64,000 nucleotides of DNA from NCBI GenBank assembly GCA_964356415.1, contig CAYHHK010000002.1, positions 13,732 through 77,731 of the forward strand, in the 5' to 3' direction. The DNA is from an uncultured Flavobacteriales bacterium. Its GTDB lineage: Bacteria > Bacteroidota > Bacteroidia > AKYH767-A > 2013-40CM-41-45. Below the pieces are notes generated by a model. The model did not search any database. It was not told where the DNA came from and saw only the letters and a list, made by a program, of their open reading frames with translations. Both the position numbers and the translations under genes were made by a program. This document shows, in pieces, positions 1-37,959 of the stretch (position 1 is its first letter; the number at the start of each line of letters is the position of its first letter).

Positions 1-26
1 AGGCAGAAATTTTATGGCAGACACCA

Positions 27-323
27 ATGAAAAATAAAAGTAAAAGCCAAACTGATTTTCGCTTTGTTGCTGCACCTGCAATGAACACCTCCGCTTCTGA
101 ACTTTTTGAGCGATATCAAACCCTTACCGGGCAGGAGAAAAGGATATTGAAACTAATATTAAGAAACTTCCGGCAAAAGGCAATATGCAGGTTGCTTAAT
201 ATCCAACTTGGCACTGAAAAGACATACCGTAAAAAAGTACATGAAAAAATGCAGATAAAAGATTTCTCAGATTTAACTGACAGCGAACGTGACCTGCTTT
301 TGAAATTCACCCACGAAAAGTAG
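27..323 (+). CDS. LuxR/GerE-type HTH transcriptional regulator (small, 98 aa)
   Basis: Segment TGQEKRILKLILRNFRQKAICRLLNIQLGTEKTYRKKVHEKM has the spacing of a LuxR C-terminal helix-turn-helix (cf. consensus LTxRExEVL...G.SnkEIA..L.IS..TVK.H..Ni..KL). The ORF is complete. Confidence 0.4.
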   Translation: MKNKSKSQTDFRFVAAPAMNTSASELFERYQTLTGQEKRILKLILRNFRQKAICRLLNIQLGTEKTYRKKVHEKMQIKDFSDLTDSERDLLLKFTHEK

Positions 324-404: not shown

Positions 405-869
405 ATGAAAACACTTTTCAAACTCCTGCTCTTGTCTTTACTTAGTTACGGCACGAGCGCCCAGGTTACTTTTCCAAAATGCAATGATTTTCTTCCTAAA
501 CCTGATCCTCAAAGTTACACTGTGCCAACTCCTGAAGGCGGTACTACAGCCACTGCATTTCTGGCCGAATACAAACCCGCCAGAAATAAAACTCTTGACG
601 GCTGCATCATAATACTAAAAGCAGGAACTGTTTTTGAAATTGATATTCCTCTTTGCCTCGAAAAGGTAACCATACTGGCTGAAGAAGGCAGCGGGATAAA
701 AATAAGAAGCGGGCAAACACTCACTCTCTACAATTGCACCCTTGAACCGGTTGATACAATTGGGTATTGGAATGGCATAACCTATGAAGATAAAAGCGTT
801 AAAGTTGAAATGTACAACTGCCGGTTAAGTAGTATAGACAATACGGTTGCTTGCTTGCCTGGATTGTGA
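405..869 (+). CDS. secreted hypothetical protein with N-terminal signal peptide
   Basis: N-terminus MKTLFKLLLLSLLSYGTSAQ is a classic signal peptide. 154 aa with several Cys. No recognisable catalytic motif. Confidence 0.45.
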   Translation: MKTLFKLLLLSLLSYGTSAQVTFPKCNDFLPKPDPQSYTVPTPEGGTTATAFLAEYKPARNKTLDGCIIILKAGTVFEIDIPLCLEKVTILAEEGSGIKIRSGQTLTLYNCTLEPVDTIGYWNGITYEDKSVKVEMYNCRLSSIDNTVACLPGL

Positions 870-965: not shown

Positions 966-1799
966 ATGAAAAATATTTGGAAATACTTGTTTCTTTTATT
1001 AAACACATCATCAACTGCGCAAATTACCCTTGATGCGCAAATAGATTCTTCTGCTTATCCTGCATTGTGGAGGATGGTTCAAATTAGTCCAACAGAAACG
1101 AAATACTTATTCCCTGATACCGTAAACAACACATTTAATCTGCTCAATATGGATTTTACTCCATTTATTTCAAATATTGCAGTGCCTGACCCTTGGGCTT
1201 GGACTACAGTTCAACATTATTCAGTGTATTATATCACTCGTGATTTATTTGATTGTGATACTTCAAATATTGAATTCGTGTTCGCTGCGCCACTTACTGC
1301 ATACAAGCCATTTAGAGTTTTACGGACAGATGGTACTTTATTATTTCAACTCGATAGTGCGATAGCATTTTTTTGCGGTGGAGATTGTGGTAATGGTGGC
1401 AGCGATTGGGTTCCTCCTATTCTTAATACTTCGGCAGGAGCAAAATTAGTGCTTTCTAAATTTAATTCGGGCAATGAAGTGGATTATATCTATTCATTAT
1501 GCGGAACCTTGCCAAACCAGGTATTTGACTTTCCAACTATTTCCCAGTCTTACGTCAGAATATTTCCTAATCCTTCTGCCGGGCTATTGACATTTCAACT
1601 TAATCTGCCTGATAACAGGAATGAATACGAATTGGTAATTCTTGATATCAATGGCGCGGAATTAAAAAGAGAAAAAGTGAATGTGCTAAGCAATACCTTT
1701 TCTATTGATGTAAAAGAATACAGCAGTGGCTCTTATGTTTATTCATTGTGCACAAAAAACAAATCATATCAAAATGGAAAATTTATTATTAATAAATAA
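966..1799 (+). CDS. T9SS C-terminal-domain (type A) secreted protein
   Basis: Signal peptide MKNIWKYLFLLLNTSSTAQ. The C-terminal ~85 aa (IFPNPSAGLLTFQLNL...GSYVYSLCTKNKSYQNGKFIINK) match the Por/T9SS sorting-domain pattern (PNP...G.Y......K....K). Confidence 0.6.
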   Translation: MKNIWKYLFLLLNTSSTAQITLDAQIDSSAYPALWRMVQISPTETKYLFPDTVNNTFNLLNMDFTPFISNIAVPDPWAWTTVQHYSVYYITRDLFDCDTSNIEFVFAAPLTAYKPFRVLRTDGTLLFQLDSAIAFFCGGDCGNGGSDWVPPILNTSAGAKLVLSKFNSGNEVDYIYSLCGTLPNQVFDFPTISQSYVRIFPNPSAGLLTFQLNLPDNRNEYELVILDINGAELKREKVNVLSNTFSIDVKEYSSGSYVYSLCTKNKSYQNGKFIINK

Positions 1800-1820: not shown

Positions 1821-4208
1821 ATGAAAATTAAACTCACATTAATAACCATGATAGCTTGTATACTATCGGGTACATCTGCTTATTCACAAATATCCCATAC
1901 CGGCCTTAATAGAACAGGAACTGATCAAGTTGGTTATGATGGTTCTGCTGGTACACCTGGTCAATTGGAAATCAGAAATGATTTTTCAACTTGTGCTGCG
2001 TGTAGCATTGATTTTTACATTGACAACAACAAATTTCTCCAAGTTCTAACCGGAGGCGATTTGAATATAGTGCAACCGGCAAATGGTTATAAGATAGACA
2101 ACGATTTTGTTCTGCGGCATAACGGTATTTTATCAAGTATTTACGTAGGAATTAATGCAGGTAATACTGCCGGTGCAATAGAAAACACATTTGTCGGGAC
2201 CAACTCAGGTGCTGCATCAGGCACAACTGGTGTTGACGGAACGCAGAATACATTCATAGGGTATTATGCGGGGCCGATTACAACCGAAGGATACCATAAT
2301 ACCTTTGTTGGTTCACACGCAGGCTTTAGTAATATTTATGGCAATTCAAACACTTTAATTGGCTATGAAGCAGGTAGAAGTTGTGTAGGAAATTACAATA
2401 CTATTGTTGGACGTGAAGCAGGGTATTGGAATACTGGTAGTGACAATTCATTTTTTGGTAAAGCTGCAGGATTTAATTCAACAGGAACAAATAACTGTTA
2501 CATTGGTAATCATGCCGGTGGACAATCTTTAGGTGCAAACGCCAATACTTGTGTTGGCACTGCAGCAGGATATAATGATCAAGGAGGTAAAAACACCTAT
2601 ATTGGAAATCGTGCAGGCGTTCATATGGTTGGAGGTCAGTTTAATGTTTTTATAGGATTGGCCTCACAAAACTCAACGATTTACACTACACTGAATAATT
2701 CAATTGCTATCGGTTGTTCAACGGTGGTAACTGGCAGTAATCAAATGATTCTTGGCGACAATGCTGTAAGCGTAGGAATAGGATTATCTGGAAATCCAAC
2801 TGGCCCTCAAAATAAGCTTGAGATCGATGAAGGTAACACTGATCAAAGTGGGTTACGTTTTCGACAACTTACAGACATCAGCACACCAATTCAAAATTCC
2901 GGACCCGGATTGTTATCAGTTGATTCGGATGGTGATGTTGTATACGTGGATCAAATTGGCAACTATTGTGGCGCTTCTATTCCAAGTCCGCTAAAAAATA
3001 CTTTTGAAGTACCACTAGATAGATACAATTATTATTTCTCTGGTCAAGGAATTGGAAATACTGACGTAATAGTTGGATTTTCTTGTACGGTTTATCCTTT
3101 ACCTTACGCCAAATTTCAATCTTGGCAAATGACTACGCAAGGAGGAGGAATGAGTGTGGCTGGTAATTTTTATAATTCAACAAATGATCTTGTTGCAGTC
3201 GGTGGTTTGGGATTGTCAGCAAGTTCTCTTGGAAGAAATATTGGGCTTTTGGGTAGAACCAGGGAATATACTGGGAAAAATAATATTGGCGTTCTGGGAG
3301 AAACCGTGCCTGCAGCGACTTTATTGGCTGGAAATCTAAACGTAGGAGTATACGGATATGCGAAATGGGCTGGCGGACATACTTCAACACATTTTAATTA
3401 TGCCGTCGTTGGAGATTTGGGAACAGCTGTGATTGTGAATACACCTACTGCAACAGATATGGCTGGATATTTCAATGGCGATCTCTTAACAACAACTGCT
3501 TTCTGGAATCTTTCTGATTCAACGTTAAAGGAAAATATCCAATCAATTGTTAATCCAATGGATGTAATTAACGCTCTCGATCCTAAATCATATACATTCA
3601 AACAGCAAGGAAATGAATCCATGATTTTGCCCGTTGGAACTCATTATGGTTTACTTGCCCAAGAAGTTGAAAGTATTTTACCTGGTGCTGTAAGAGATTG
3701 CGTTCATCCAGAACGCATGGATACTTTAGGCAACCAAACTCATGCAGAAATAGCGTATAAAGCGGTAAATACAAATGAGCTGATTCCTTTTCTAATTGGG
3801 GCAATTAAAGAACAACAGCAAACTATGGAAGCTATGCAGGATGAAATTGCAATCTTAAGTGGTGGTGGGAATCGTCAAGGCAATTTTGGTTCAGATGATG
3901 AAGAAGTACAAACTAATGGAATCAATGTGCAACTAACCAATGCTAAAGCAATTATTTTAAATCAGAACGTACCTAACCCATTTGCGGAGCAAACAACCAT
4001 TACCTACTTTCTTACTGATGATGTAAAGAAAGCACAGATGTTCTTTTATGATAACAAAGGAACGATCTTAAAAACAGTTGAGATCAATGAAAAAGGCGCC
4101 GGGCAGATTAACGTTTTCGCGGCAGACCTCAGCAGTGGGAACTACACATACACTCTTGTTGCTGATGGAAAAGTTATTGATTCAAAGAAAATGATTAAGA
4201 CAAACTAA
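1821..4208 (+). CDS. phage-tail-fibre-like secreted protein: N-T-x-[IV]-G-x-x-A-G repeat stalk + Peptidase_S74 intramolecular chaperone domain + T9SS CTD
   Basis: Signal peptide. There are more than 10 tandem ~14-aa repeats (NTFVGTNSGAASG / NTFIGYYAGP / NTLIGYEAGR / NTIVGREAGY ...). An S74 'chaperone of endosialidase' domain begins LSDSTLKENIQSIVNPMDVINALDPKSYTF... (nt 3513-3530 encode SDSTLK, with the Ser-x4-Lys dyad spacing). The C-terminal NVPNPFAEQTTITYF...GNYTYTLVADGKVIDSKKMIKTN is a T9SS CTD. Confidence 0.7.
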   Translation: MKIKLTLITMIACILSGTSAYSQISHTGLNRTGTDQVGYDGSAGTPGQLEIRNDFSTCAACSIDFYIDNNKFLQVLTGGDLNIVQPANGYKIDNDFVLRHNGILSSIYVGINAGNTAGAIENTFVGTNSGAASGTTGVDGTQNTFIGYYAGPITTEGYHNTFVGSHAGFSNIYGNSNTLIGYEAGRSCVGNYNTIVGREAGYWNTGSDNSFFGKAAGFNSTGTNNCYIGNHAGGQSLGANANTCVGTAAGYNDQGGKNTYIGNRAGVHMVGGQFNVFIGLASQNSTIYTTLNNSIAIGCSTVVTGSNQMILGDNAVSVGIGLSGNPTGPQNKLEIDEGNTDQSGLRFRQLTDISTPIQNSGPGLLSVDSDGDVVYVDQIGNYCGASIPSPLKNTFEVPLDRYNYYFSGQGIGNTDVIVGFSCTVYPLPYAKFQSWQMTTQGGGMSVAGNFYNSTNDLVAVGGLGLSASSLGRNIGLLGRTREYTGKNNIGVLGETVPAATLLAGNLNVGVYGYAKWAGGHTSTHFNYAVVGDLGTAVIVNTPTATDMAGYFNGDLLTTTAFWNLSDSTLKENIQSIVNPMDVINALDPKSYTFKQQGNESMILPVGTHYGLLAQEVESILPGAVRDCVHPERMDTLGNQTHAEIAYKAVNTNELIPFLIGAIKEQQQTMEAMQDEIAILSGGGNRQGNFGSDDEEVQTNGINVQLTNAKAIILNQNVPNPFAEQTTITYFLTDDVKKAQMFFYDNKGTILKTVEINEKGAGQINVFAADLSSGNYTYTLVADGKVIDSKKMIKTN

Positions 4209-4264: not shown

Positions 4265-4293
4265 AAGCCCTTTGGAAACGAAGGACTTTTTTT
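4265..4293. terminator. candidate bidirectional intrinsic terminator between convergent genes
   Basis: Imperfect hairpin AAGCCCTT-tggaaacg-AAGGACTT followed by T7. It lies between the stop of 1821..4208 (+) and the stop of 4294..5361 (-). Confidence 0.35.
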
Positions 4294-5361
4294 CTACACT
4301 TTTTTGCACTTAAGCAACGAATGCGACACCCCGATACCATCCGTTTGTTCCTCAATTTTGAATCCGGCACGCTCCACGCATTTTTCAAAAGCTTTTGAAT
4401 AATACATCTGGCTGTTGCCATTGGCAATTGCTGTGAAGTATAAAGAGGTCATCTGCAAACAAAAAGCGGATGCTTCAAATTGCTGTTTGTCCCAAAGCGT
4501 TTCCATAATATACACATGCCCGGTTTCTGAAACCGCATCGCGGCAACGCGTCAGGATGGAAACAATTTCATCGTCAGAAAAACAATCCAGGAACTGGCTC
4601 ATCCAGATGGCATCGAATCCACCGGGGAACTTCTTCTCCCCTTCCAGTATATTGTTTTCGAAAAATGAAATGCGGTGACTCAACCCCGATTCCTCAATAT
4701 TTTTTTTCGCCATATCAAGTTGCCCCGGCAGGTCCATGATGGTGACGTGTACTTCAGGATCATGTTTCAAACATTGTATCGCCCATTTACCGGTATTGCC
4801 ACCTATGTCGAGGAGATGTTTTGGTTTGTTTTTAAAAACTGCTTCTAATGCCTGAGGAAAAGCATGGTCAGAATAAAAATGGTCAAAACTGAACCAGCTC
4901 CGCTGAACATGAACGGGAAGCTTTGACAATCCCTCATAAACCGTTTTCCAGTTGCCGAATACTTTTAATCCTTCCGGCTTTCCGTTGCGGATGGATTCAT
5001 CGAGGCGAAAAAGTCCTTCATAACATACATCATGGGTAAAATCCATGTTCACTTTTGTCATCGGATCGTTGAGAATGAAATATCCTGTCTTGCTCAGGCG
5101 GAATTTTTCATCCTCCCACAAAAGCAAACCAATACTCAATCCGGCTTCCATAAGCACGCGGGCCCCGTAATGACTGATGTTGCATTTTTTTTCTACTTCC
5201 TCAATCGTAACCGCTTCAGGTTTCCTCGATTCGATGTATTCCAGTATTCCGAAATCCCTTAATGAGCGCGATGCCTGGAAAACAAATGGCGCATAAGCAA
5301 TCCACTGCGCATTTTCCTTAGCCTCCAGTGCTGATTTTACTTCTTTATTGAAAAAATTCAT
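4294..5361 (-). CDS. class I SAM-dependent O-methyltransferase (family 2, caffeate-OMT-like)
   Basis: LLDIGGNTGKWAIQCLKHDPEVHVTIMDLPGQLDMAKKNIEES is a SAM-binding motif I/II. An N-terminal dimerisation-like region is present. 355 aa. Confidence 0.75.
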   Translation of the reverse strand: MNFFNKEVKSALEAKENAQWIAYAPFVFQASRSLRDFGILEYIESRKPEAVTIEEVEKKCNISHYGARVLMEAGLSIGLLLWEDEKFRLSKTGYFILNDPMTKVNMDFTHDVCYEGLFRLDESIRNGKPEGLKVFGNWKTVYEGLSKLPVHVQRSWFSFDHFYSDHAFPQALEAVFKNKPKHLLDIGGNTGKWAIQCLKHDPEVHVTIMDLPGQLDMAKKNIEESGLSHRISFFENNILEGEKKFPGGFDAIWMSQFLDCFSDDEIVSILTRCRDAVSETGHVYIMETLWDKQQFEASAFCLQMTSLYFTAIANGNSQMYYSKAFEKCVERAGFKIEEQTDGIGVSHSLLKCKKV

Positions 5362-5715
5362 AGCGGGCGAAGATATGAAATGAACAGGTAATCAGTCTTA
5401 GTAAAAATTTCACATCCCTTTTTTAAAATTTAAAACTTAAAAGGATGTAAATTTTGCGGAAGCAATGAAATCCCGACTAACCACAAATGTTTCCTTCCGA
5501 CATTAACTATTATCAATGCATGTCATCCCGAATGGAGCCCCAAAACTTTGGGGCGTAATGAGTGATCTTTCAAACTTTTGGACCACAATAAAATCGAATC
5601 CCAACAGCTAAATGAAGAGGAATCTTACCAACTCAAACTGTTGATCTCCCGTTTAAACTTCCCACCCCTCAATTCAAACAAATTTCCCTAATATTGAACC
5701 CCGAAAGAAAAATTT

Positions 5716-7260
5716 ATGGTTTCAATAGGCGATCGTTACCTGACGCTTGAGGATTTAATTGCAATTGTTGAACAGAACCGTAAAGTTGAGTTGAATGACA
5801 CAGCTACACGAAAAGTTTACCAGAGCTATTATTTCTTAAAGGAATTTATCAAAGAAAAGCTGATCTACGGCATCAATACCGGATTTGGTCCAATGGCCCG
5901 TTACCGGATTAATGCGGAGGATCAGATTGACCTGCAATACAACCTCATCAGGAGTCACTGCAGCGGCAGCGGTGCCATGATCGATCCTGCCTATGTAAAG
6001 GCAACCTTGATCGCTCGTCTCAATACCTTGTTGCTTGGTTACTCAGGCATCCATCCCGATGCAGTGGTTTTGCTGAAGGACATGATCAACCACGATGTGC
6101 TGCCTGTCATCTTCGAACACGGTGGCTTGGGCGCCAGCGGCGACCTTGTGCAACTGGCACATGTGGCACTCTCCATGATCGGCGAAGGAAATGTGAACCG
6201 AAACGGAGCGGTGAGCAAGACAGCTGATGTTTTTGCAAAAGAAAAAATAACACCCTTGAAAGTTCACATCAGGGAAGGACTTGCTTTGATGAATGGCACT
6301 TCAGCCATGTGTGGTATCGGAGCGCTGAACATCAGTGATGCAAGGAATCTTTTGCACTGGTCCGTTGCGATTTCTTCAATGATCGTTGAACTGGTTGAAT
6401 CATATGATGATCATTATTCATCAGAACTGAACAATGTAAAACAGCATGAAGGTCAGCGTAAAGTCGCAGGCATGATGCGTGCATTTCTCGCCGACAGTAA
6501 AATGGTGAAGAATCGCGAAGAACACCTTTATAACAGAAAAGTAGACGAGAACATTCTGAAAGAGAAAGTGCAGGAATATTATTCCATTCGCTGTGTACCG
6601 CAAATTCTCGGTCCTATCTACGATACCATTGCAGGTGCGGAAAAGGTAGTCATGGATGAGATCAATTCTGTGAATGACAATCCGGTGATCGACTACGAAC
6701 ATAAAAACGTATTTCACGGGGGAAATTTTCATGGCGACTACGTGGCGCTGGAAATGGACAAACTGAAAATTGCTGTAGCAAAACTTTCCATGTTGTGCGA
6801 ACGGCAACTGAACTTCCTGATGAACGACCACCTGAACGGAAAGCTTCCACCTTTCGTCAACCTCGGCAAACTCGGATTGAATATCGGCATGCAGGGAACC
6901 CAGTTTACAGCAACATCAACAGTTGCTGAAAATCAAATGCTGTCGAACCCGATGTATGTGCACAGCATACCAAGCAACAACGACAACCAGGATATCGTAA
7001 GCATGGGCTCCAATGCCGCACTCATCGCTGCAAGGGTCATCAACAATTCTTTTGAGGTCATGGCGATTGAATTGATCTCGTTGGTTCAAGCAATTGATTA
7101 CCTCGGTATTGCATCAAAGCTTTCTTCTGCATCTCAGTCAGTTTACAATGACGTGCGGAAACTGGTTCCTGTTTTTGAGAAGGACTCAATAATGTATGAG
7201 CGTACAAAATCTGTCAGGGATTTTCTGAAGGAGAGTAAGAATGCACTAAGTAAAAAGTAG
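5716..7260 (+). CDS. MIO-dependent aromatic amino-acid ammonia-lyase (HAL/TAL/PAL family)
   Basis: Motifs GINTGFGPMA and the Ala-Ser-Gly MIO triad in GGLGASGDLVQLAH. Length 514 aa. Overall collinear with HutH/TAL. Confidence 0.85.
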   Translation: MVSIGDRYLTLEDLIAIVEQNRKVELNDTATRKVYQSYYFLKEFIKEKLIYGINTGFGPMARYRINAEDQIDLQYNLIRSHCSGSGAMIDPAYVKATLIARLNTLLLGYSGIHPDAVVLLKDMINHDVLPVIFEHGGLGASGDLVQLAHVALSMIGEGNVNRNGAVSKTADVFAKEKITPLKVHIREGLALMNGTSAMCGIGALNISDARNLLHWSVAISSMIVELVESYDDHYSSELNNVKQHEGQRKVAGMMRAFLADSKMVKNREEHLYNRKVDENILKEKVQEYYSIRCVPQILGPIYDTIAGAEKVVMDEINSVNDNPVIDYEHKNVFHGGNFHGDYVALEMDKLKIAVAKLSMLCERQLNFLMNDHLNGKLPPFVNLGKLGLNIGMQGTQFTATSTVAENQMLSNPMYVHSIPSNNDNQDIVSMGSNAALIAARVINNSFEVMAIELISLVQAIDYLGIASKLSSASQSVYNDVRKLVPVFEKDSIMYERTKSVRDFLKESKNALSKK

Positions 7261-7317
7261 GCGGCTGTTAACTAATCAACTTAATCAACATATTCAACCC
7301 ACTCAACTTTTCTAAAA
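7261..7317 (+). promoter_or_regulatory. period-9 CA-rich tandem repeats in the 5' leader of the KR gene
   Basis: ctaATCAAC ttaATCAAC atATTCAAC ccaCTCAAC ttttctaaaaATG. Confidence 0.5.
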
Positions 7318-8046
7318 ATGAAAGTCGCATTAGTTACAGGAGGATCAAGAGGAATCGGCAGGGCAATCTGCGTAAAGCTTGCCGAGCTTGGATATTATGT
7401 ACTGATCAATTACCAGTCAAACAAAGCAGCTGCGGAAGAAACACTGGCCGAAGTAAAAGCAAAAGGAAGTGACGGAGAACTGATGATGTTTGACGTTGCC
7501 GAAGAAACGCAGGTACAATCCGTACTTGGAAGCTGGCTTGAGAACCATAAAGAAAACGCAATTGAAATCCTGGTAAATAATGCAGGAATTAAAAACGACA
7601 CGTTGCTGATGTGGATGAGCACAAAGCAATGGAAAGATGTGCTGAATACAAGCATGGACGGATTCTTCAACGTAACCAAACTCGTAGTACAGGGCATGCT
7701 CGTTAAGAAGTACGGAAGAATTGTAAACGTAGTATCTTTGTCAGGATTGAAAGGAATGCCCGGACAGGCAAATTACTCAGCCGCTAAAGCCGGAGTCATT
7801 GGTGCCACAAAAGCACTGGCGCAGGAAGTAGGAAGAAGAAATATTACAGTGAATGCAGTTGCACCCGGGTTTATCAGAACAGACATGACAAAAGATATTG
7901 ACGAGAAAAGTTTCAAGCAACTGATACCTGTCGCGCGTTTCGGAAATCCGGAAGAAGTAGCGGAAGCGGTTTGCTTTCTCGCTTCTGAAAAGGCATCGTA
8001 CATTACAGGTGTGGTGCTGAATGTAAATGGAGGACTTTATACATAA
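7318..8046 (+). CDS. fabG: 3-oxoacyl-[ACP] reductase-type SDR (FabG-like ketoreductase)
   Basis: TGGSRGIGRAI Rossmann motif, NNAGI, and the catalytic YSAAKAG (YxxxK). 242 aa. Confidence 0.8.
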   Translation: MKVALVTGGSRGIGRAICVKLAELGYYVLINYQSNKAAAEETLAEVKAKGSDGELMMFDVAEETQVQSVLGSWLENHKENAIEILVNNAGIKNDTLLMWMSTKQWKDVLNTSMDGFFNVTKLVVQGMLVKKYGRIVNVVSLSGLKGMPGQANYSAAKAGVIGATKALAQEVGRRNITVNAVAPGFIRTDMTKDIDEKSFKQLIPVARFGNPEEVAEAVCFLASEKASYITGVVLNVNGGLYT

Positions 8047-8053
8047 AAAGTAA

Positions 8054-8131
8054 AAAAGGTAATTGTGGTAATTGGTGTTATACAGTTTTGACTTAATTAC
8101 CTTAATTACCCATTCAACCAATAACTAAAGA
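8054..8131 (+). promoter_or_regulatory. inverted pair of tandem repeats (GGTAATTG x2 ... TAATTACC x2) plus ATTCAACC in the KAS leader
   Basis: ggtaattgtggtaattgg-N19-ttaattaccttaattacc cattcaacc, with 9-nt periodicity. Confidence 0.5.
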
Positions 8132-9355
8132 ATGAACAGAGTAGTAATAACAGGCATGGGAGTTTATTCATGTCTGGGTAAAAATTTAGAAGAAGTCCGT
8201 AATTCATTGTACGCCGGAAAATCAGGTATCGGCTATGATCAGGCAAGGAAAGATTTTGGTTTCCGCTCCGGACTTACGGGTATCCTGGAGAAGCCGCAGT
8301 TGAAAGGCAAACTGGACCGCAGACTAAGAATAGGATTGGCGGAAGAAGGGGAATACGCTTACCTGTCAACACTGGAAGCTTTGGAAAACGCAAAGCTCGA
8401 TGTTGGTTACCTTGAATCGCATGAAGCAGGAATCATTTTCGGGAATGACAGTTCTGCATTGGCAGTAGTAGAAGCCACCGATACCATCCGCCTGAAGAAA
8501 GATACCACGCTGCTGGGTTCAGGTTCCATTTTTCAAAGCATGAACTCCACGGTGAACATGAACCTGGCTACCATCTTTAAGCTGAAAGGAATCAACTTCA
8601 CCGTGAGTGCTGCCTGTGCTAGTGGGTCGCATGCAGCGGGCCTGGGATTTCTATTTATTAAAGAAGGATACCAGGACATGGTGATCTGTGGCGGCGCACA
8701 GGAAGTGAATATGTATTCCATGGGAAGCTTTGACGGACTCGGTGCTTTTTCCATCCGCGAAAATGAACCTACTTTAGCATCCCGACCTTTTGATAAATCT
8801 CGTGATGGGCTCATTCCCAGTGGAGGTGCAGCAACCATCGTTTTGGAAAGTTTGGAAAGCGCACTAAAGCGCGGAGCAAATATTCTCGGTGAAATTATCG
8901 GCTACGGATTTTCATCCAACGGCGACCACATATCCAATCCGAATGTTGACGGACCATACCGTTCGCTGATGCGTGCAATGAAACAATCCGGAATAAATGT
9001 TTCTGAAATTGATTACATCAATGCACATGCAACATCTACTCCTAATGGTGATATGTTTGAAGCGCGTGCCATTGATAAACTTTGCGGGGACGTAAAAACT
9101 GCAGTGAGTTCTACCAAATCAATGACGGGACATGAGTGCTGGATGGCAGGCGCAAGTGAAATTGTTTATTCGCTGCTGATGATGCGTGATTCGTTTATCG
9201 CACCGAACATCAACTTCGAAACGCCTGATGAAGATTCGGCCAAGCTGAATATAATTGCCAAAACGCTCGACAAGAACATTGACATTTTTCTTTCCAACTC
9301 CTTTGGATTTGGGGGAACGAATTCTACGATTATAGTGAAGAAATTTAAGGGGTGA
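8132..9355 (+). CDS. beta-ketoacyl-[ACP] synthase, KAS I/II (FabB/FabF) family
   Basis: Active-site Cys in SAACASGSHA. The two His motifs are NAHATSTPNGD and MTGHECWMAGA. 407 aa. Confidence 0.85.
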   Translation: MNRVVITGMGVYSCLGKNLEEVRNSLYAGKSGIGYDQARKDFGFRSGLTGILEKPQLKGKLDRRLRIGLAEEGEYAYLSTLEALENAKLDVGYLESHEAGIIFGNDSSALAVVEATDTIRLKKDTTLLGSGSIFQSMNSTVNMNLATIFKLKGINFTVSAACASGSHAAGLGFLFIKEGYQDMVICGGAQEVNMYSMGSFDGLGAFSIRENEPTLASRPFDKSRDGLIPSGGAATIVLESLESALKRGANILGEIIGYGFSSNGDHISNPNVDGPYRSLMRAMKQSGINVSEIDYINAHATSTPNGDMFEARAIDKLCGDVKTAVSSTKSMTGHECWMAGASEIVYSLLMMRDSFIAPNINFETPDEDSAKLNIIAKTLDKNIDIFLSNSFGFGGTNSTIIVKKFKG

Positions 9356-9496
9356 GGTATCTACAAATTACGAATGAGAACGAATTACGTATAAAGAAAA
9401 GGGCAGCCGAGGGGTGCTCTTTTTAATTTAGTACACACAACTTGTGCTGTGCGATACACAGGGTGGTGGGTTCAATTGTATAAGCATACAAAATTG

Positions 9497-9742
9497 CTAA
9501 GGAAGACGGGGATTGGCCTGTCTTTTTTTTGAACGCATTGCTATTTTTGCTATAGCGCGCAATGCATCATTTACCGAATCAGAGTCAGGAAAATTTTTTG
9601 CTACATCCGGAGCGAGAACAACTATGTTTGTTCCGGCAGCAAATTGCTTTGAATACTTTCCGCGGATTCCTCTGCTGAAATCATATTCAGACAACATTTC
9701 TTCAACTTGTTTATGTTTCATAATTATATTGTTTTCTTTCAT
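9497..9742 (-). CDS. BrnA/DUF4415-like small antitoxin-type protein (orphan, no cognate toxin)
   Basis: EYDFSRGIRGKY motif followed by VVLAPDVAKNFPDSDSVNDALRAIAKI, which resembles the BrnA-family layout (EYDFSKGKRG ... RLD.DVL.WF......N.ALR). No BrnT-like ORF is adjacent. Confidence 0.4.
   Translation of the reverse strand: MKENNIIMKHKQVEEMLSEYDFSRGIRGKYSKQFAAGTNIVVLAPDVAKNFPDSDSVNDALRAIAKIAMRSKKRQANPRLP
9504..9530 (+). terminator. rho-independent terminator downstream of the KR-KAS operon
   Basis: GACGGG-gattgg-CCTGTC hairpin (one G.U wobble) followed by T8. It overlaps the 3' codons of the minus-strand ORF 9497..9742. Confidence 0.5.
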
Positions 9743-9759
9743 TGCGGGCTTTTCTTTTT

Positions 9760-11271
9760 CTACTCTTTTATAAATTTCTTTACAATGATGCCTTGTTCGG
9801 TTTGGAGATCGAGAAAGTAAATGCCGCTTGAAAGAAAACGAATATCAATTTCTTTTTTGTAACCGGAAATGGTTTGTGATAAAAATTCTTTGCCGATGAG
9901 ATCGAAGATTTTTAGTTGGGAGATTTTTGCAGATGTTGAGATGAGAAGTTTTAAAGAAGCAGGATTCGGGGAAAGAAGAAAGAAGATGTCTGTCGCTTTT
10001 TCATTATAGCCATCAATCAGGCAGATTGTGCTGTCAAGCCCTAAGTTATATACAAAAGTACTATCATAAAAAAAAGTTGTAGAAGGTGCTGTAACAATTG
10101 TTGGAATGTTTAACTGATTTGCGGTAAAGGTTGGTTGAGTTAATGTAGGAGTTCCTTCATTGCATCCGCTATTGCCGTTTGCATCAGTTTTGATCAAATA
10201 AATATCGCCACCAGACATACCAGCAATAACGTATCCACCGTCAAAGGTTTGCTGAATTGAATTACCATAATCATTACCTGTACCCCCAAATGTTTTTGCC
10301 CAAATTAAATTTCCCAAACTATCTATCTTGTTAATAAAAACATCATTGCCATTACTAGTACTTACATACCCTGCCATTGCATAACCTCCATCTGAAGTTT
10401 GCGCTCCGGAATAGCCATAAGTAAATGCTGATGTGCACTGAAAGTTTTTTTCGAAAACTAAATTTCCCACACTATCAGTTTTAATTATACAGACATTTCC
10501 TGCCGCTGATAAGCTCCCGCCAATAATATAACCGCCATCGGAAGTTTGGAAAACAGATTTTCCATAACCGTTTGATCCGTTATAAACCCTTGTCCAAAGG
10601 GAGTCGCCATTGTGGTCTGTTTTTATCAAGCAAATAGATGCTCCTAAACTCCATCTTTCTCCGGTAATAATATATCCACCATCACTGGTTTGTTTCACTG
10701 CCCATCCTTCATCAGTGTCGGCATCGCCAAAAGTTTTTGACCACAGCAAATTTCCGATGCTATCTGTTTTAATTAAGTAAACATCCAGGTTATTCGCACC
10801 AACACTTGTTATACCACAAATGATATATCCACTATCCGATGTCTGTTGAACTGAATAACCTATACTGCCAAAACCGCTAACAAATCTCTTTACCCAAATA
10901 GTATCACCGATAGAGTCAGTTTTAATTAAAAATAAAGTGAAGGGTGAAAAGCTCGTGTCACTTCTTCCTGTAACTGCATATCCACCATCAAACGTTTGAC
11001 AAACAGACCAACCGATATCAACACCAGTGCCTCCATAGGTTTTAGACCAAACAGCGTTTCCATAAGCATCTGTTTTTATCAAATATAAATCATAATTACC
11101 TGTAACGTTATCGTTGTAGCCGGTCATTATAAAACCACTATCAGAAGTTTGCTGAACTGAATTACCGAAATCGTTTATTCCTGATATGCCAAAAGTCTTT
11201 TGAAAGGTTATTTGTCCAAGACAATTTAGCCCGATATATAAAAGAAAAACGAGGAGAGGATATTTTTTCAA
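9760..11271 (-). CDS. repeat-rich (~45-aa SDGGY / IKTD..GN..W.KT.GG repeats) secreted protein with T9SS CTD
   Basis: Likely TTG start at 11271 gives the signal peptide (M)KKYPLLVFLLYIGLNCLGQ; the ORF-track Met at 11385 precedes a non-signal N-terminus. At least 8 repeats of QTSDGGYIITG...LIKTDSIGNLLWSKTFG. The C-terminal LSPNPASLKLL...GIYFLDLQTEQGIIVKKFIKE is a CTD. Confidence 0.55.
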   Translation of the reverse strand: MKKYPLLVFLLYIGLNCLGQITFQKTFGISGINDFGNSVQQTSDSGFIMTGYNDNVTGNYDLYLIKTDAYGNAVWSKTYGGTGVDIGWSVCQTFDGGYAVTGRSDTSFSPFTLFLIKTDSIGDTIWVKRFVSGFGSIGYSVQQTSDSGYIICGITSVGANNLDVYLIKTDSIGNLLWSKTFGDADTDEGWAVKQTSDGGYIITGERWSLGASICLIKTDHNGDSLWTRVYNGSNGYGKSVFQTSDGGYIIGGSLSAAGNVCIIKTDSVGNLVFEKNFQCTSAFTYGYSGAQTSDGGYAMAGYVSTSNGNDVFINKIDSLGNLIWAKTFGGTGNDYGNSIQQTFDGGYVIAGMSGGDIYLIKTDANGNSGCNEGTPTLTQPTFTANQLNIPTIVTAPSTTFFYDSTFVYNLGLDSTICLIDGYNEKATDIFFLLSPNPASLKLLISTSAKISQLKIFDLIGKEFLSQTISGYKKEIDIRFLSSGIYFLDLQTEQGIIVKKFIKE

Positions 11272-11634
11272 TGGCAGACCAAAGATAGAAAAGTTTATTT
11301 CCGGCTGCTTAGAATGGTTGCTATGAAATAAAGCCCTAAGTGCAATAGCCCTGACAGTAGCGGAAACCCCGAAGAGCGAATGCATGTGCGGATAGCCGGA
11401 GTTGCAGCGCCTGCCTGCCGTTAGCAGGATGGCAGGAAGACAGGTAAATTGAAATGAGACAGCATCGCTCCCAACCTTCGCTCACTCTCCTTCGCTAAAG
11501 CTACGGAAAGCAAAGAGCTACGGGTGGCAAGGATCAACCTTCGCTGAAGCTACGGCTGACAAGGGAAAAATTAAGAATGGATTTCTGAAAAAAATCATGT
11601 AAGTTTGCCGACCTACTTAAACACAAGCACTTGA

Positions 11635-11892
11635 ATGTCGGCTACCAGCACAGATGAAATAATCACCAAGGTAAATGCTTTCCTTGTTGATGAGTTTGAG
11701 GTTGATCCTGAGTCCATTACACCCGGGGCAAACCTGAAAGAAACCCTGAATCTCGACAGCCTCGATTATGTTGATTTAGTCGTTGTCATTGAAAGCAATT
11801 TCGGTTTTAAGGTAAAAGGAGAGGATTTTGTCAATATCAAGACCTTCCAGGACTTTTACAACTACATCAACACAAAAGTAGCGGCAAAATAA
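11635..11892 (+). CDS. acyl carrier protein
   Basis: 85 aa. The DSL phosphopantetheine attachment motif (LNLDSLDYVDLVVVIES) is present. Confidence 0.8.
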   Translation: MSATSTDEIITKVNAFLVDEFEVDPESITPGANLKETLNLDSLDYVDLVVVIESNFGFKVKGEDFVNIKTFQDFYNYINTKVAAK

Positions 11893-11899
11893 ATTCCCC

Positions 11900-12787
11900 A
11901 TGCCTTCATGGAAGGGTAAATCCCAGGGCGGACTTCTCGGTTACAAAATTTTTGTTTTCATTTTAAAGCTGCATGGACTGCGGCTTGCTTATTTTATTCT
12001 CCGGTTTGTTGCATCATGGTACCTGTTTTTTTCATTCCGAACCTTTAAATCCTCCTGGCATTTTTTCCGGACCATGCTGAAGTTTCCTTTCTTCAAAAGC
12101 ATTTCTTCCATTTACAAAAGCTATTATAACCTGGGTGTATCACTGCTCGACAAATTTGCAATGATGGCAGATGTAAAAACAAACTTCACATTCGATTTTA
12201 ACGGGGAAGAATACCTGCATGAAATGGCGAAAGCAGGACGCGGCGGCGTGCTCATCAGCGGGCATCTCGGCAACTGGGATATGGCGGGCAACATGCTGAA
12301 ACGCGTGGAGACAAAAGTAAACATCGTACTCTTTGAAGGAGAAGCCGAACAGATCAAAAAATATATGGACCGTTTTGCAGGCGCCCCTAACTACAACATC
12401 ATCTCCGTGAAAAATGACATGTCCCATATTTTTCAAATCTCAGCAGCGATTCAACGAAATGAATTCATCTGCATACACGGCGACCGGTTTACCGAAGGTA
12501 CAAAAACATTTGAAACAGAATTCCTCGGAAGAAAGGCATTGTTTCCTTCAGGTGTTTTTCAGATTGCCCATAAACTGAAAACGCCTTATACCTTTGTATA
12601 TGCGGTGAAAGAATCCTCCTCGCATTATCATTACTCTGCAAGCAAACCAAAGGTGAGCGAAAAAAGTCCGGAAGAGATTTTAAGGGAATATGTTACTTCA
12701 TTGGAAGAAAAAGTGAAACAATACCCCACGCAGTGGTTTAATTTTTACAATTTCTGGGAAGAAGGACGAAAGGAAAAGCGGCAGTAG
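11900..12787 (+). CDS. LpxL/HtrB-family (lauroyl/myristoyl) acyltransferase
   Basis: SGHLGNWDMAG matches the H(X)4[DE] HxxNWE active-site motif of lipid A late acyltransferases. An N-terminal hydrophobic anchor is present. 295 aa, 8 nt after the ACP gene. Confidence 0.6.
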   Translation: MPSWKGKSQGGLLGYKIFVFILKLHGLRLAYFILRFVASWYLFFSFRTFKSSWHFFRTMLKFPFFKSISSIYKSYYNLGVSLLDKFAMMADVKTNFTFDFNGEEYLHEMAKAGRGGVLISGHLGNWDMAGNMLKRVETKVNIVLFEGEAEQIKKYMDRFAGAPNYNIISVKNDMSHIFQISAAIQRNEFICIHGDRFTEGTKTFETEFLGRKALFPSGVFQIAHKLKTPYTFVYAVKESSSHYHYSASKPKVSEKSPEEILREYVTSLEEKVKQYPTQWFNFYNFWEEGRKEKRQ

Positions 12788-36866: not shown

Positions 36867-37959
36867 ATGACAATCGTACAATTAAAAGATTTAAAGGAGC
36901 GTATTGAAGCCCTGAGGGGGTTTCTTTGACGTAGAGGGAAAACTGAAAGCAATCAAAGAGGAAGAGGATAAATCCCATTCGCCTGATTTCTGGAATAATC
37001 CAAAGGAAGCAGAAAAATTACTCAAAGGAATCAAGCAAAAGAAAAACTGGACTGTTGCATTTAACGCATTGAATAGTTCTTATGAAGACCTCAGCGTACT
37101 ATTTGACTTTTTAAAAACAGGCGACACTTCAGAAAAAGAAGTGGATGAACACTATGTTCAAACCTTGAAACTTCTTGATGATCTGGAGTTCAAACGAATG
37201 CTTGGAGGTGAAGAGGATCAGCTGAATGCCATCCTCAATATCAACAGTGGTGCAGGCGGAACTGAAAGCCAGGACTGGGCTGATATGCTCATGCGCATGT
37301 ATATTATGTGGGGCGAGAAAAATGGTTACAAAGTTGTTGAAGTCGATAAACAGGAAGGTGAAGCGGCAGGGATAAAGTCCGCAACGCTTGAATTCACCGG
37401 TGATTTTGCTTACGGATATCTCAAAGCTGAAAGCGGAGTCCACAGACTTGTCCGTATTTCTCCTTTTGATTCAAATGCCAAGCGGCATACTTCCTTTGCT
37501 TCTGTCTTTGCTTATCCCGTTGTTGATGATACCATAGAAATCGAGATCAAAGATGCAGACCTTGAAGTCCAGACTTCCCGCTCCGGAGGTGCCGGCGGAC
37601 AGAACGTAAACAAGGTTGAAACCAAGGTTCAGATGAAGCACTTACCTACAGGTATTGTTGTCGTTTGCCAGGTAGAGCGCTCGCAAGGCGGCAATAAGGC
37701 ACGTGCTTTGAAAATGTTGAAGTCACAGTTGTATGAATTGGAACTACGGAAACGCAATGATGCAAAAGCTGTAACAGAAGCAGGGAAGAAAAAAATCGAA
37801 TGGGGTTCTCAGATACGTTCTTACGTTTTTCATCCGTACAAAATGGTGAAAGACCTGCGGACTGATTATGAGACCAGCGATGTTCAGGGCGTGATGGATG
37901 GTGACCTGAATGAGTTTATGAAGGCGTATTTGATGGAGAATGCGAGTACGAAGGTGTGA
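36867..37959 (+). CDS. prfB: peptide chain release factor 2 with programmed +1 ribosomal frameshift
   Basis: Frame 0 runs 36867..36926 ([20 protein letters not shown]) and ends at CTT TGA C (36924-36930), preceded by an SD-like AGGGGG. The +1 frame 36928..37959 continues [13 protein letters not shown]... The SPF, GGQ ([11 protein letters not shown]) and peptide-anticodon regions of RF2 are present. Confidence 0.9.

What the first reader, a model, noticed from the sequence alone, without database searches (positions are those of the whole stretch)
1821..4208. T9SS cargo built from a phage tail-fibre module, with the self-cleaving S74 chaperone domain placed upstream of the secretion signal
The protein combines three modules.
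- A signal peptide.
- A stalk of N-T-x-[IV]-G-x-x-A-G repeats of the kind seen in phage tail fibres and endosialidases.
- A Peptidase_S74 intramolecular-chaperone domain (LSDSTLKENIQSI..., Ser/Lys dyad spacing intact), followed by a type-A T9SS CTD.

In characterised S74 proteins the chaperone domain autocleaves at the conserved Ser once the trimer has folded, and is released. Here that cleavage would sever the CTD, which the T9SS needs for outer-membrane translocation, from the fibre body. Either cleavage is delayed until after export, or the fibre trimer stays non-covalently attached, or the exported entity is the C-terminal piece. This is a co-option of phage tail machinery into a bacterial secretion substrate that I would not expect to see routinely annotated.
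Basis: partly seen in the sequence, partly recalled or inferred. Interest (0 to 1): 0.7.

Follow-up and report, generated by a model that had tools for sequence, protein, structure and literature searches.

The report
Self-cleaving trimeric fibre exported by T9SS
This Bacteroidota gene encodes a secreted adhesin-like fibre in which a phage-type self-cleaving folding domain sits between the fibre and its type IX secretion tag; the layout is common in databases (over 1,000 protein clusters), I found no study of it, and it raises a testable question about how this secretion system handles trimers.

Summary
ORF 1821..4208 (795 aa) has these parts:
- a Sec signal peptide
- a 16-17-residue repeat stalk
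- a Peptidase_S74 domain (residues 565-681) with Ser565/Lys570 intact
- a disordered linker
- a type-A T9SS CTD (residues 710-795)

- **Not rare:** at least 1,193 protein clusters (50% identity) match the S74-linker-CTD module at E<=1e-30. The order is always the same, and every one of the 80 best genome loci is from Bacteroidota. NCBI names relatives "tail fiber domain-containing protein".
- **Cellular, not viral:** phage and viral-contig matches never reach the CTD.
- **The stalk is not phage-like:** its closest solved folds are YadA-like heads of trimeric autotransporter adhesins.
- **Cleavage looks selected:** the dyad serine is kept in 185 of 188 CTD-linked terminal S74 domains.
a roughly 270-350 aa T9SS-CTD protein lies directly upstream of most of these fibre genes (here 966..1799). 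The family's CTD is unusually conserved, and many relatives carry tandem S74 modules.

Most likely this is a T9SS-exported trimeric fibre. S74 would nucleate folding, then cut off both itself and the secretion tag, much as MyRF is released from its membrane anchor. The order of cleavage and export is inferred, not shown.

The parts
1821..4208 (+). Fibre precursor gene, 795 aa: signal peptide, N-terminal domain, YadA-like head, connector, tip, S74, linker, T9SS CTD
   Evidence: ORF; domains
1821..1886 (+). Sec/SPI signal peptide (residues 1-22). The predicted cut leaves Gln23 as the new N-terminus.
   Evidence: Sequence inspection. Gln23 is invariant in A2. Q-rule from PMC5837995. No predictor was run.
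1887..2120 (+). N-terminal beta-rich domain (residues 23-100), variable across the family. It is a candidate attachment end of the mature fibre.
   Evidence: AF2 strands with pLDDT 47-90; low conservation. The role is inferred.
2121..2780 (+). Repeat stalk (residues 101-320): about 11 turns of a YadA-like left-handed beta-roll, period 16-17 residues, motif NTFxGxxAG
2781..3020 (+). Conserved connector (residues 321-400), motif GPxNKLEI...SGLRFRQLT...LSVDxDGDVVYV. It is the best-conserved part of the passenger.
   Evidence: Alignments A1 and A2; per-segment scores
3021..3512 (+). Tip region (residues 401-564) with NxGVxG repeats, ending in AGYFNGD just before the cleavage site. It probably needs the trimer to fold.
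   Evidence: pLDDT below 50 for residues 449-559 in the monomer model; repeats; the same module is duplicated in tandem-S74 relatives
3513..3863 (+). Peptidase_S74 intramolecular chaperone / autocleavage domain (residues 565-681). Nucleophile Ser565 is at nt 3513-3515 and Lys570 at nt 3528-3530. The predicted scissile bond is Leu564|Ser565. The C-terminal helix spans residues 651-681.
   Evidence: Pfam 50.9 bits; translation; PDB alignments; Foldseek 7dc3 and 3gw6
3864..3947 (+). Disordered Gly/Asn/acidic linker (residues 682-709) between S74 and the CTD
   Evidence: pLDDT below 50 for residues 681-708; family linker median 43 residues, range 20-93
3948..4205 (+). Type-A T9SS C-terminal sorting domain (residues 710-795) of a conserved, family-specific subclass
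   Evidence: TIGR04183 23.3 bits against cut-off 23; pLDDT about 94; Foldseek 8qb1 and 8glk_D; mean pairwise identity 54% across the family
966..1799 (+). Upstream partner gene (277 aa): signal peptide, an uncharacterised all-beta domain of about 165 aa, and a type-A CTD. It ends 21 nt before the fibre gene on the same strand.
   Evidence: Pfam CTD 44.2 bits; conserved synteny; family of 175 homologues; AF2 pLDDT 85.8
4269..4294 (+). Terminator-like hairpin plus T-run after the fibre gene. It is the probable 3' end of the transcription unit.
   Evidence: Consensus scan only; no such site lies between 966 and 4208 on the + strand

Best explanation
The gene encodes the precursor of a homotrimeric, adhesin-like surface or secreted fibre exported by the type IX secretion system.

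**Proposed sequence of events**
1. Sec exports the chain, and signal peptidase I cuts before Gln23.
2. The C-terminal CTD (residues 710-795) directs the protein to the T9SS translocon.
3. The S74 domain (residues 565-681) trimerises through its C-terminal helix. It then nucleates folding of the tip (401-564) and registers the three YadA-like beta-roll heads.
4. Once the trimer is folded, the Ser565/Lys570 dyad cuts Leu564|Ser565 in each chain.
5. One self-catalysed cut therefore removes both the chaperone and the secretion tag. This leaves a mature fibre (residues 23-564) with an unmasked C-terminal tip. The S74-linker-CTD stub stays with the T9SS shuttle or attachment machinery.

**Why the domain order is forced.** S74 must directly follow the fibre, and the CTD must be the last domain of the chain.

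**Timing.** I think productive cleavage most likely finishes during or after outer-membrane translocation. In that case S74 acts like the MyRF ICA domain, which frees an N-terminal trimer from a membrane-held stub.

**Partner.** The co-transcribed upstream CTD protein is a candidate surface dock for the released fibre, or a modulator of cleavage.

**Shown here:** the domains, their order, the intact dyad, conservation of both across the family, restriction to Bacteroidota, and a chromosomal rather than phage context.

**Inferred:** trimerisation, actual cleavage, T9SS dependence, the timing, and the partner's role.
For: **Domains and dyad:**

**Fixed order.** In 190 of 190 proteins that carry both domains, S74 is followed by a 20-93-residue linker and then the CTD. 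The CTD ends within 4 residues of the C-terminus.

**Selection for catalysis next to the CTD.** Ser is kept in 185 and Lys in 186 of 188 full-length terminal S74 domains. In internal S74 domains, Ser is kept in 57 of 57 and Lys in 56 of 57.

**Size and range of the family.**
- 1,193 clusters at E<=1e-30, and the best 150 all span S74 to CTD.
- 247 genome loci, with all 80 best from Bacteroidota and several copies in some MAGs.

**Few fusion events.** On an S74 tree, the presence of a CTD changes state at least 7 times, against 27 for shuffled labels.

**Cellular context.** The window holds housekeeping genes and at least 7 Por_Secre_tail proteins, and no phage or eCIS genes. Phage and IMG/VR matches stop before the CTD.

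**Head fold.** It matches trimeric autotransporter heads. The tip is modelled poorly as a monomer, which fits a trimer-dependent fold.

**Literature**
- S74 self-cleavage has been shown for a signal-peptide-bearing bacterial fibre, Bd3182 (PMC10769870).
- The T5 chaperone-fibre interface is weak. The authors conclude the chaperone must be released after cleavage, and propose that cleavage unmasks the binding site (PMC4690869).
- The MyRF ICA domain stays on the membrane and releases the N-terminal trimer (PMC8326128).
Against: - No experiment on any member of this family was found.
- T9SS cargo is generally proposed to fold in the periplasm (PMC10202324). Recombinant S74 proteins also cleave spontaneously in E. 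coli (PMC10769870). Nothing known would delay trimerisation until after export.
- The CTD scores are marginal: 23.3 bits against a cut-off of 23, and below Pfam's gathering score.
- No T9SS core genes were identified among the window genes I scanned (not every ORF was scanned), and the source genome is an uncultured MAG.
- Only a monomer could be modelled.
- Three natural relatives lack the catalytic Ser (P0032, P0046, P0061), so cleavage is not indispensable for every member.
- The partner family is not always linked to a fibre gene. Only 2 of 4 checked homologues had an S74 gene nearby.
Confidence: 0.5

Rival explanations
1. Assembly and cleavage in the periplasm, followed by piggy-back export. 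The precursor trimerises and autocleaves in the periplasm. The cleaved S74-CTD trimer stays bound non-covalently long enough for its three CTDs to carry the folded fibre through the wide SprA/Sov pore, and it dissociates outside.
For: T9SS cargo is proposed to fold in the periplasm before recruitment (PMC10202324). S74 proteins trimerise and cleave spontaneously when expressed in E. coli (PMC10769870). In T5, beta-hairpin 'tentacles' of the chaperone wrap the fibre tip (PMC4690869). The unusually conserved family CTD (54% mean identity) could reflect adaptation to presenting three tags at once.
Against: The T5 chaperone-fibre interface is weak (about -12 kcal/mol and hydrophilic), and the authors conclude that the chaperone must be released (PMC4690869). 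I know of no precedent for non-covalent piggy-back export through the T9SS. Any dissociation before export would strand the fibre in the periplasm.
Confidence: 0.2
2. S74 serves here only as a permanent trimerisation base. Cleavage is suppressed in vivo, for example by the partner protein or by the attached CTD. The fibre then stays covalently joined to the CTD region and is anchored to the surface by PorU/A-LPS like ordinary type-A cargo.
For: MyRF self-cleavage can be inhibited by a partner, TMEM98 (PMC8326128). Three relatives have lost the catalytic Ser yet keep the same architecture. Covalent anchoring would explain how the fibre stays on the cell.
Against: Ser and Lys are kept in about 98% of CTD-linked S74 domains across more than 180 diverged representatives. 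This nearly equals the 40 of 40 seen in relatives without a CTD. That argues for selection on catalysis. In T5, an uncleaved chaperone masks the binding tip (PMC4690869).
Confidence: 0.15
3. Only the C-terminal fragment is exported, or the fibre acts in the periplasm. Cleavage in the periplasm would leave the fibre there, and the T9SS would export only the S74-CTD stub.
For: This is the literal result of early cleavage followed by dissociation. The S74-CTD module is the best-conserved part of the protein.
Against: An adhesin-type YadA-like head and a variable tip make little sense in the periplasm. Keeping a large, diversifying passenger in more than 1,000 clusters implies that the passenger is the functional product. 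No function is known for a free S74 domain.
Confidence: 0.05
4. A misread prophage, tailocin or eCIS tail-fibre gene, in which the C-terminal 'CTD' is a chance match.
For: The S74 domain is typical of phage fibres, and the closest PDB sequence match is a phage S16 tail fibre. The CTD HMM scores are marginal.
Against: - The protein has a signal peptide.
- The CTD is a confident Ig-like sandwich that matches solved T9SS CTDs.
- 190 of 190 relatives share the same terminal CTD.
- Neither the window nor the related loci contain phage or eCIS genes.
- No phage record or viral contig has the CTD.
Confidence: 0.02

Closest known systems
Bdellovibrio bacteriovorus MAT (mosaic adhesive trimeric) fibres, S74 subgroup, e.g. 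Bd3182 (PMC10769870)
   Same: Chromosomal, non-phage bacterial fibre proteins with a Sec signal peptide. They are long trimeric fibres with a variable tip followed by an S74 domain carrying SDxxxK, and that domain was shown to self-cleave (Ser782). Members locate to the cell surface, and the family is multi-copy within one genome.
   Different: MAT proteins end at the S74 domain and have no T9SS CTD, and the paper does not name the route by which they cross the outer membrane. They share a conserved N-terminal domain of about 130 aa, which I could not compare here. Their stalk is described as an intertwined beta-helix rather than a YadA-like head.
MyRF / MrfA membrane-tethered transcription factors (ICA domain; PDB 7dc3; PMC8326128)
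   Different: MyRF is eukaryotic and faces the cytosol. Its anchor is a transmembrane helix rather than a secretion signal, and its passenger is a DNA-binding domain.
Phage tail fibres and spikes with a C-terminal intramolecular chaperone (K1F endosialidase 3gw6, T5 pb1, GA-1 gp12 3gud, S16 gp37 6f45)
   Same: Homologous S74 domain with the same Ser/Lys dyad and GxxAQEVE motif. It sits directly after the receptor-binding tip.
   Different: In phages the S74 domain is the last domain of the protein. There is no signal peptide or CTD, and the genes lie in virion modules. No phage record or viral contig matched the CTD.
Trimeric autotransporter adhesins (type Vc secretion: YadA, UspA1, EibD, BpaC, CbpF)
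   Different: There is no YadA_anchor beta-barrel and no Pfam Hep_Hag match. Trimerisation (S74) and export (CTD via the T9SS) are supplied by two unrelated modules, and the predicted cleavage detaches the fibre from them.
Ordinary type-A CTD cargo of the T9SS (gingipains, mirolase, NucA and others)
   Same: Sec signal peptide with Gln at +1, a terminal Ig-like CTD of about 80 residues after a flexible linker, and neighbouring CTD-bearing genes.
   Different: Known cargo lose the CTD through the PorU sortase. Here a self-cleaving domain lies just upstream of the CTD. The passenger is predicted to be an obligate trimer, and this CTD subclass is far more conserved (54% mean identity) than generic CTDs (18-41% within the window).

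Membership tests
Peptidase S74 / intramolecular chaperone auto-processing (ICA, CIMCD) domain | Significant match to PF13884 | tested here: met
   E=1.9e-13, 50.9 bits against a gathering score of 22, residues 565-624
Peptidase S74 / intramolecular chaperone auto-processing (ICA, CIMCD) domain | Catalytic Ser and Lys five residues apart (SDxxxK) | tested here: met
   The sequence is S565-D-S-T-L-K570. It aligns to the dyad positions of 6f45 and 7dc3.
Peptidase S74 / intramolecular chaperone auto-processing (ICA, CIMCD) domain | ICA fold ending in a long helix that forms the trimeric coiled coil | tested here: met
Peptidase S74 / intramolecular chaperone auto-processing (ICA, CIMCD) domain | Trimer-dependent autoproteolysis | not testable with these tools
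   Needs expression of the wild type against Ser565Ala. Trimer modelling was not available.
Peptidase S74 / intramolecular chaperone auto-processing (ICA, CIMCD) domain | Domain is the C-terminal end of the protein (the phage arrangement) | tested here: not met
   It is followed by a 28-residue linker and an 86-residue CTD. The internal position resembles MyRF.
T9SS type-A CTD cargo | Match to TIGR04183 / PF18962 at the extreme C-terminus | tested here: inconclusive
   TIGR04183 scores 23.3 bits against a cut-off of 23, which passes. PF18962 scores 22.8 bits against a gathering score of 27, which fails. The match ends 2-3 residues from the C-terminus.
T9SS type-A CTD cargo | Ig-like beta-sandwich CTD fold | tested here: met
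   pLDDT about 94 with seven strands. Foldseek matches the mirolase CTD 8qb1 (TM 0.63) and the NucA CTD 8glk_D (TM 0.69).
T9SS type-A CTD cargo | N-terminal Sec signal peptide | tested here: inconclusive
   Typical n/h/c regions and an invariant Gln23, which fits the Q-rule (PMC5837995). No signal-peptide predictor was available.
T9SS type-A CTD cargo | The host encodes a T9SS | tested here: inconclusive
   At least 7 CTD proteins lie in the window, and all relatives are from Bacteroidota. No T9SS core component turned up among the window genes scanned, and not every ORF was scanned.
T9SS type-A CTD cargo | T9SS-dependent secretion and removal of the CTD | not testable with these tools
   Needs genetics and proteomics.
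Trimeric autotransporter adhesin (type Vc) | YadA-like head or stalk repeats | tested here: inconclusive
Trimeric autotransporter adhesin (type Vc) | C-terminal YadA_anchor beta-barrel translocator | tested here: not met
   No such Pfam hit. The C-terminus is S74 plus a CTD. The protein is therefore not filed as a trimeric autotransporter adhesin.
Bdellovibrio MAT fibre family | Signal peptide, trimeric fibre, and (in the S74 subgroup) a terminal SDxxxK S74 domain | tested here: inconclusive
   The signal peptide and the SDxxxK S74 domain are present. Trimer formation is untested, and S74 is not terminal here.
Bdellovibrio MAT fibre family | Conserved N-terminal beta-rich domain of about 130 aa | not tested
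The N-terminus of this family is variable.
Phage / prophage / eCIS tail fibre | Located in a virion or contractile-injection gene cluster | tested here: not met
   The neighbours are housekeeping, pigment-biosynthesis and T9SS-cargo genes. The S74-CTD fusion is absent from the phage and IMG/VR collections.

The most novel reading that the evidence does not exclude
The S74-linker-CTD unit may be a dedicated 'fold, export and self-release' cassette that gives Bacteroidota a functional equivalent of trimeric autotransporter adhesins.

- Three CTDs of a specialised, conserved subclass would be presented by one S74 trimer.
- The T9SS would either export a folded homotrimer or allow trimer assembly on the shuttle at the cell surface.
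- Autoproteolysis, rather than the PorU sortase, would then release the fibre.
- The fibre would be captured by the co-transcribed, CTD-anchored partner protein.
- Tandem tip-S74 modules would let one precursor yield more than one trimeric product.
Probability: 0.3. Interest if true: 0.8.

Novelty: new variant of a known kind. Interest (0 to 1): 0.6.

Why it matters
**A natural probe for an open T9SS question.** It is still unclear whether the T9SS handles folded oligomers, and where its cargo folds. This family offers a built-in reporter, because the S74 cut happens only after correct trimer folding. Finding where the Leu564|Ser565 cut products appear (periplasm, surface or medium), in the wild type and in T9SS mutants, would report directly on the order of folding and translocation.

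**A large unstudied class of fibres.** More than 1,000 clusters of adhesin-like trimeric fibres exist in environmental Bacteroidota, a phylum in which I found no trimeric autotransporter adhesin among the relatives examined. They are probably relevant to adhesion, gliding surfaces, predation or particle attachment.

**Possible application.** The compact S74-CTD module could be used to secrete engineered trimeric proteins without leaving a tag.

**Limits.** None of this has been shown experimentally, and the gene in this window is simply one ordinary member of the family.

Tried and rejected
- **Trimer modelling.** The structure tool folds single chains only and accepts only natural sequences, so neither the trimer nor partner-fibre complexes could be modelled.
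- **Genome scan with the broad alignment A1.** It failed because no stretch was conserved enough. I repeated it with the closer set A2.
- **Literature.** These searches found no paper that treats the S74-CTD combination:
  - 'Peptidase_S74' with 'type IX secretion'
  - 'intramolecular chaperone' with 'T9SS'
  - 'Peptidase_S74' with 'Por_Secre_tail'
  - 'chaperone of endosialidase' with T9SS terms
  - 'tail fiber domain-containing protein' with 'T9SS'

  The last search found only one line in a Tannerella forsythia vesicle proteome table.
- **Which fibre segment co-varies with partner type.** The result was uninformative, because fibres with a c2 partner are simply the closest relatives overall.
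- **PF26696 (PTL_trimer).** It is listed in precomputed annotations of relatives, but the local Pfam copy did not report it, so I could not examine it.
- **Lipoprotein reading of the N-terminus (MIAC).** Rejected in favour of an SPI site before the invariant Gln23.
- **Prophage, tailocin or eCIS fibre.** Rejected on gene context and on the absence of the CTD from viral collections.
Full report
**1. What is in the sequence**

ORF 1821..4208 (+) encodes 795 aa.
- Pfam places Peptidase_S74 at residues 565-624 (E=1.9e-13, 50.9 bits, gathering score 22). It places Por_Secre_tail at 718-792 (22.8 bits, below the gathering score of 27).
- NCBIfam TIGR04183 (T9SS type-A sorting domain) scores 23.3 bits against a cut-off of 23.
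- window:3510-3536 reads LSDSTLKEN. In HMMER alignments to solved proteins, Ser565 and Lys570 fall on the catalytic Ser/Lys of the phage S16 long tail fibre (6f45) and of the MyRF ICA domain (7dc3).
- A family profile strengthens these matches: 6f45 at 2.8e-19, 7dc3 at 4.2e-14, 8jov at 1.9e-11 and GA-1 gp12 (3gud) at 0.014.
- The N-terminus (MKIKLTLITMIACILSGTSAYS|Q) looks like a Sec/SPI signal. Gln23 is invariant among close homologues, as the Bacteroidetes Q-rule predicts (PMC5837995). I judged this by eye.

**2. Anatomy from the model**

An AF2 monomer model built on 59 homologues (mean pLDDT 71.5) shows these regions:

| Residues | Region | pLDDT |
|---|---|---|
| 101-320 | repeat region | mostly above 90 |
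| 449-559 | tip | below 50 |
| 565-681 | S74 domain, ending in helix 651-681 | about 80-89 |
| 681-708 | linker | below 50 |
| 710-795 | seven-strand sandwich (CTD) | about 94 |

- Foldseek matches the S74 part to the MyRF ICA domain (TM 0.67) and to the K1F endosialidase chaperone (3gw6). It matches the C-terminal sandwich to the T9SS CTDs of mirolase (8qb1) and NucA (8glk_D).
- The repeats are real. There are nine copies of N-[TSCV]-x-[IVFLA]-G-x3-[GAS], spaced 16-21 residues apart, against 0.19 expected by shuffling.
- The protein is therefore a three-way chimera. It combines an autotransporter-type head, a phage-type folding and cleavage domain, and a T9SS tag.

**3. How common it is, and where it occurs**

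- A full-length search gave 316 homologues. NCBI names several of them 'tail fiber domain-containing protein', and many already carry both Pfam domains in precomputed annotation.
- Among the 122 proteins fetched, 86 have S74 and 46 have S74 followed by the CTD. The order is never reversed.
- Searching the S74-linker-CTD module (residues 555-795) against 1.84 billion cluster representatives gave 17,021 hits at E<=1e-3 and 1,193 at E<=1e-30. All 150 best hits span the whole module and end at the protein's C-terminus.
- Across the 190 proteins with both domains, the linker is 20-93 residues (median 43). The CTD ends within 4 residues of the C-terminus.
- In one-genome-per-species contigs, 247 loci encode relatives. 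All 80 best are from Bacteroidota, including Flavobacteriales, Crocinitomicaceae, Fluviicola, Chitinophagaceae, Sphingobacteriaceae, Chryseobacterium and Bacteroidales. Some MAGs carry five or more copies.
- Phage genomes match only the S74 part, and no record covers 80% of the module. The five IMG/VR relatives match either the head repeats or S74, never the CTD.
- The window itself is ordinary chromosome.
  - Upstream of the window, on the same contig, lie PTPS and GTP cyclohydrolase I genes.
  - Inside the window are GcpE, urocanase, fumarase, RF-2, RNase E/G, UvrD, an alpha-2-macroglobulin and a pigment-type polyketide cluster.
  - At least seven Por_Secre_tail proteins are also encoded there.
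- The fusion is therefore cellular, specific to Bacteroidota and abundant.

**4. Is cleavage maintained?**

- Among CTD-linked terminal S74 domains, 185 of 188 full-length sequences keep the Ser and 186 keep the Lys. The exceptions are P0061, P0046 and P0032.
- Internal S74 domains keep 57 of 57 Ser and 56 of 57 Lys. Relatives without a CTD keep both in 40 of 40.
- On a rough neighbour-joining tree of the S74 domain, CTD presence needs only 7 state changes, against about 27 for shuffled labels. The pairing is old and mostly inherited vertically, with a few losses.
- This argues that autoproteolysis is selected for, even though it severs the passenger from the tag.

**5.

(a) *A conserved partner gene.*
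- Of the 82 loci scored, 12 had the fibre gene at a contig edge. Of the other 70, the ORF directly upstream lies on the same strand in 64.
- In 43 loci that ORF, within 150 nt, is a CTD-bearing protein from one of two sequence clusters. Cluster c1 accounts for 36 loci and c2 for 7. Most partners are about 270-350 aa, and the gaps are mostly 3-30 nt.
- The window's own 966..1799 gene (277 aa, 21 nt upstream) belongs to c2. It has 175 database homologues of uniform length, annotated only as T9SS sorting-domain proteins.
- c1 members carry either type-A or type-B CTDs.
- The N-terminal domains of c1 and c2 are not detectably related, since hhalign aligns only the CTDs.
- The c2 model (pLDDT 85.8) has an all-beta N-terminal domain with no convincing structural match.
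- The linkage is not obligatory from the partner's side. Of four c2 homologues on long contigs, one is followed directly by an S74-CTD gene, one has an S74 gene nearby and two stand alone.

(b) *An unusually conserved CTD.*
- Mean pairwise identity is 54% for the CTD and 39% for S74 across 188 representatives. The CTD is the more conserved of the two in 96% of pairs.
- Generic CTDs within this window share only 18-41%.
- This set was selected by similarity to the module, so the figure is biased upward. However, per-segment scores over the genome loci show the same ranking.

(c) *Tandem modules.*
- 54 of 144 representatives carry two or three S74 domains with intact dyads.
- The segment between them is a duplicate of the tip module.

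**6. Mechanism**

Two positional rules explain the order. The chaperone must directly follow the fibre tip, and the CTD must be terminal. The cost is that a folded trimer cuts off its own export tag.

The published work that bears on this:
- S74 cleavage follows correct trimer folding (PMC8326128).
- The T5 chaperone-tip interface is weak. The authors conclude that the chaperone must be released after cleavage, and they propose that cleavage unmasks the binding site (PMC4690869).
- MyRF uses the same domain to free a trimer from a membrane-held stub, and a partner protein can inhibit that cleavage (PMC8326128).
- A Sec-exported bacterial fibre, Bd3182, self-cleaves at its S74 serine (PMC10769870).
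- T9SS cargo is thought to fold in the periplasm (PMC10202324).

My preferred reading is that the CTD takes the precursor to and through the T9SS. Trimer-dependent cleavage would finish at or beyond the outer membrane, and one cut would shed both the chaperone and the tag. The released fibre would then be held or modulated by the co-expressed partner.

The main rivals are periplasmic assembly with non-covalent piggy-back export, and suppressed cleavage with S74 acting as a permanent trimer base. The domain-level statements are shown here. The timing, trimerisation, T9SS dependence and the partner's role are all inferred.

**7. Comparison and novelty**

The closest characterised system is the Bdellovibrio MAT fibre family, whose members are cellular, carry a signal peptide and (in one subgroup) end in S74. 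The closest topological analogue is MyRF, where the ICA domain lies between the passenger and the anchor. The gene is not a trimeric autotransporter (no anchor barrel) and not a phage fibre (wrong context, and it has a CTD).

I found no paper that describes S74 upstream of a T9SS CTD. Databases nevertheless hold more than a thousand clusters with this layout. I therefore rate it a new variant of known kinds. The window's gene is an ordinary member of a large, unstudied family.

Interest is 0.6. The architecture is not exotic in frequency, but it poses a sharp and easily testable question about T9SS handling of oligomers, and it points to a Bacteroidota counterpart of trimeric autotransporter adhesins.

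Noticed in passing
window 966..1799 (+); related loci such as L005:7009-7983, L034:2528-3490, L079:3360-4187: A T9SS-CTD protein of about 270-350 aa lies directly upstream of most S74-CTD fibre genes, on the same strand, usually 3-30 nt away. It falls into two unrelated sequence clusters (c1 in 47 loci, c2 in 10). Its N-terminal domain has no known family or fold match. c1 members carry either type-A or type-B CTDs.
   Followed up: partly
relatives P0007, P0009, P0023, P0135 and about 50 other representatives: Many family members carry two or three S74 domains with intact Ser/Lys dyads. The segment between them duplicates the tip module. Full processing would therefore cut one precursor into several trimeric pieces.
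   Followed up: partly
window 3948..4205 and the CTDs of 188 family representatives: The CTD attached to S74 is a distinct and unusually conserved subclass. Mean pairwise identity is 54%, higher than the S74 domain in 96% of pairs. Generic CTDs in the same window share only 18-41%. It scores weakly against the general CTD HMMs.
   Followed up: partly
relatives P0032, P0046, P0061: Three CTD-bearing relatives have Ala in place of the catalytic Ser, and two of them also lack the Lys. They are possible natural non-cleaving variants. Two of the three sit in a divergent S74 clade.
   Followed up: no
L011-L014 and L025 (MAG JBDTTM01); L004:1-5007: The family is multi-copy in some genomes. One MAG has at least five loci, and one contig carries two S74-CTD paralogues side by side.
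   Followed up: no
window 4294..12787: The window holds a pigment-type (flexirubin-like) biosynthesis set: a methyltransferase, an aromatic ammonia-lyase, an SDR, a ketosynthase, an ACP and a lipid A acyltransferase-like gene. A 541-aa T9SS-CTD protein gene (9760..11385, - strand) sits among them.
   Followed up: no
window about 36900..37959 (+): The release factor 2 ORF starts at 37069 with TTG, and its PCRF match begins only at profile position 49. This suggests the usual prfB programmed +1 frameshift just upstream.
   Followed up: no
window 405..869 (+) and 1..323 (+): Two further same-strand genes precede the partner-fibre pair. One is a 154-aa signal-peptide protein with a weak beta-helix hit and no CTD. 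The other is a GerE/LuxR-type regulator cut by the window start (165 aa on the full contig). They may belong to the same unit.
   Followed up: no
window 966, 1821, 9760, 12899, 16626, 24213, 57980: At least seven Por_Secre_tail (T9SS cargo) genes lie in 64 kb. They include a 1,592-aa PKD/Ig-repeat protein and a 1,007-aa Laminin_G_3 protein. No T9SS core component was identified among the window ORFs I scanned.
   Followed up: partly
window 4269..4294 (+): A terminator-like hairpin with a T-run lies 61 nt after the fibre gene's stop codon. It is the only such + strand site between 966 and 4300.
   Followed up: no
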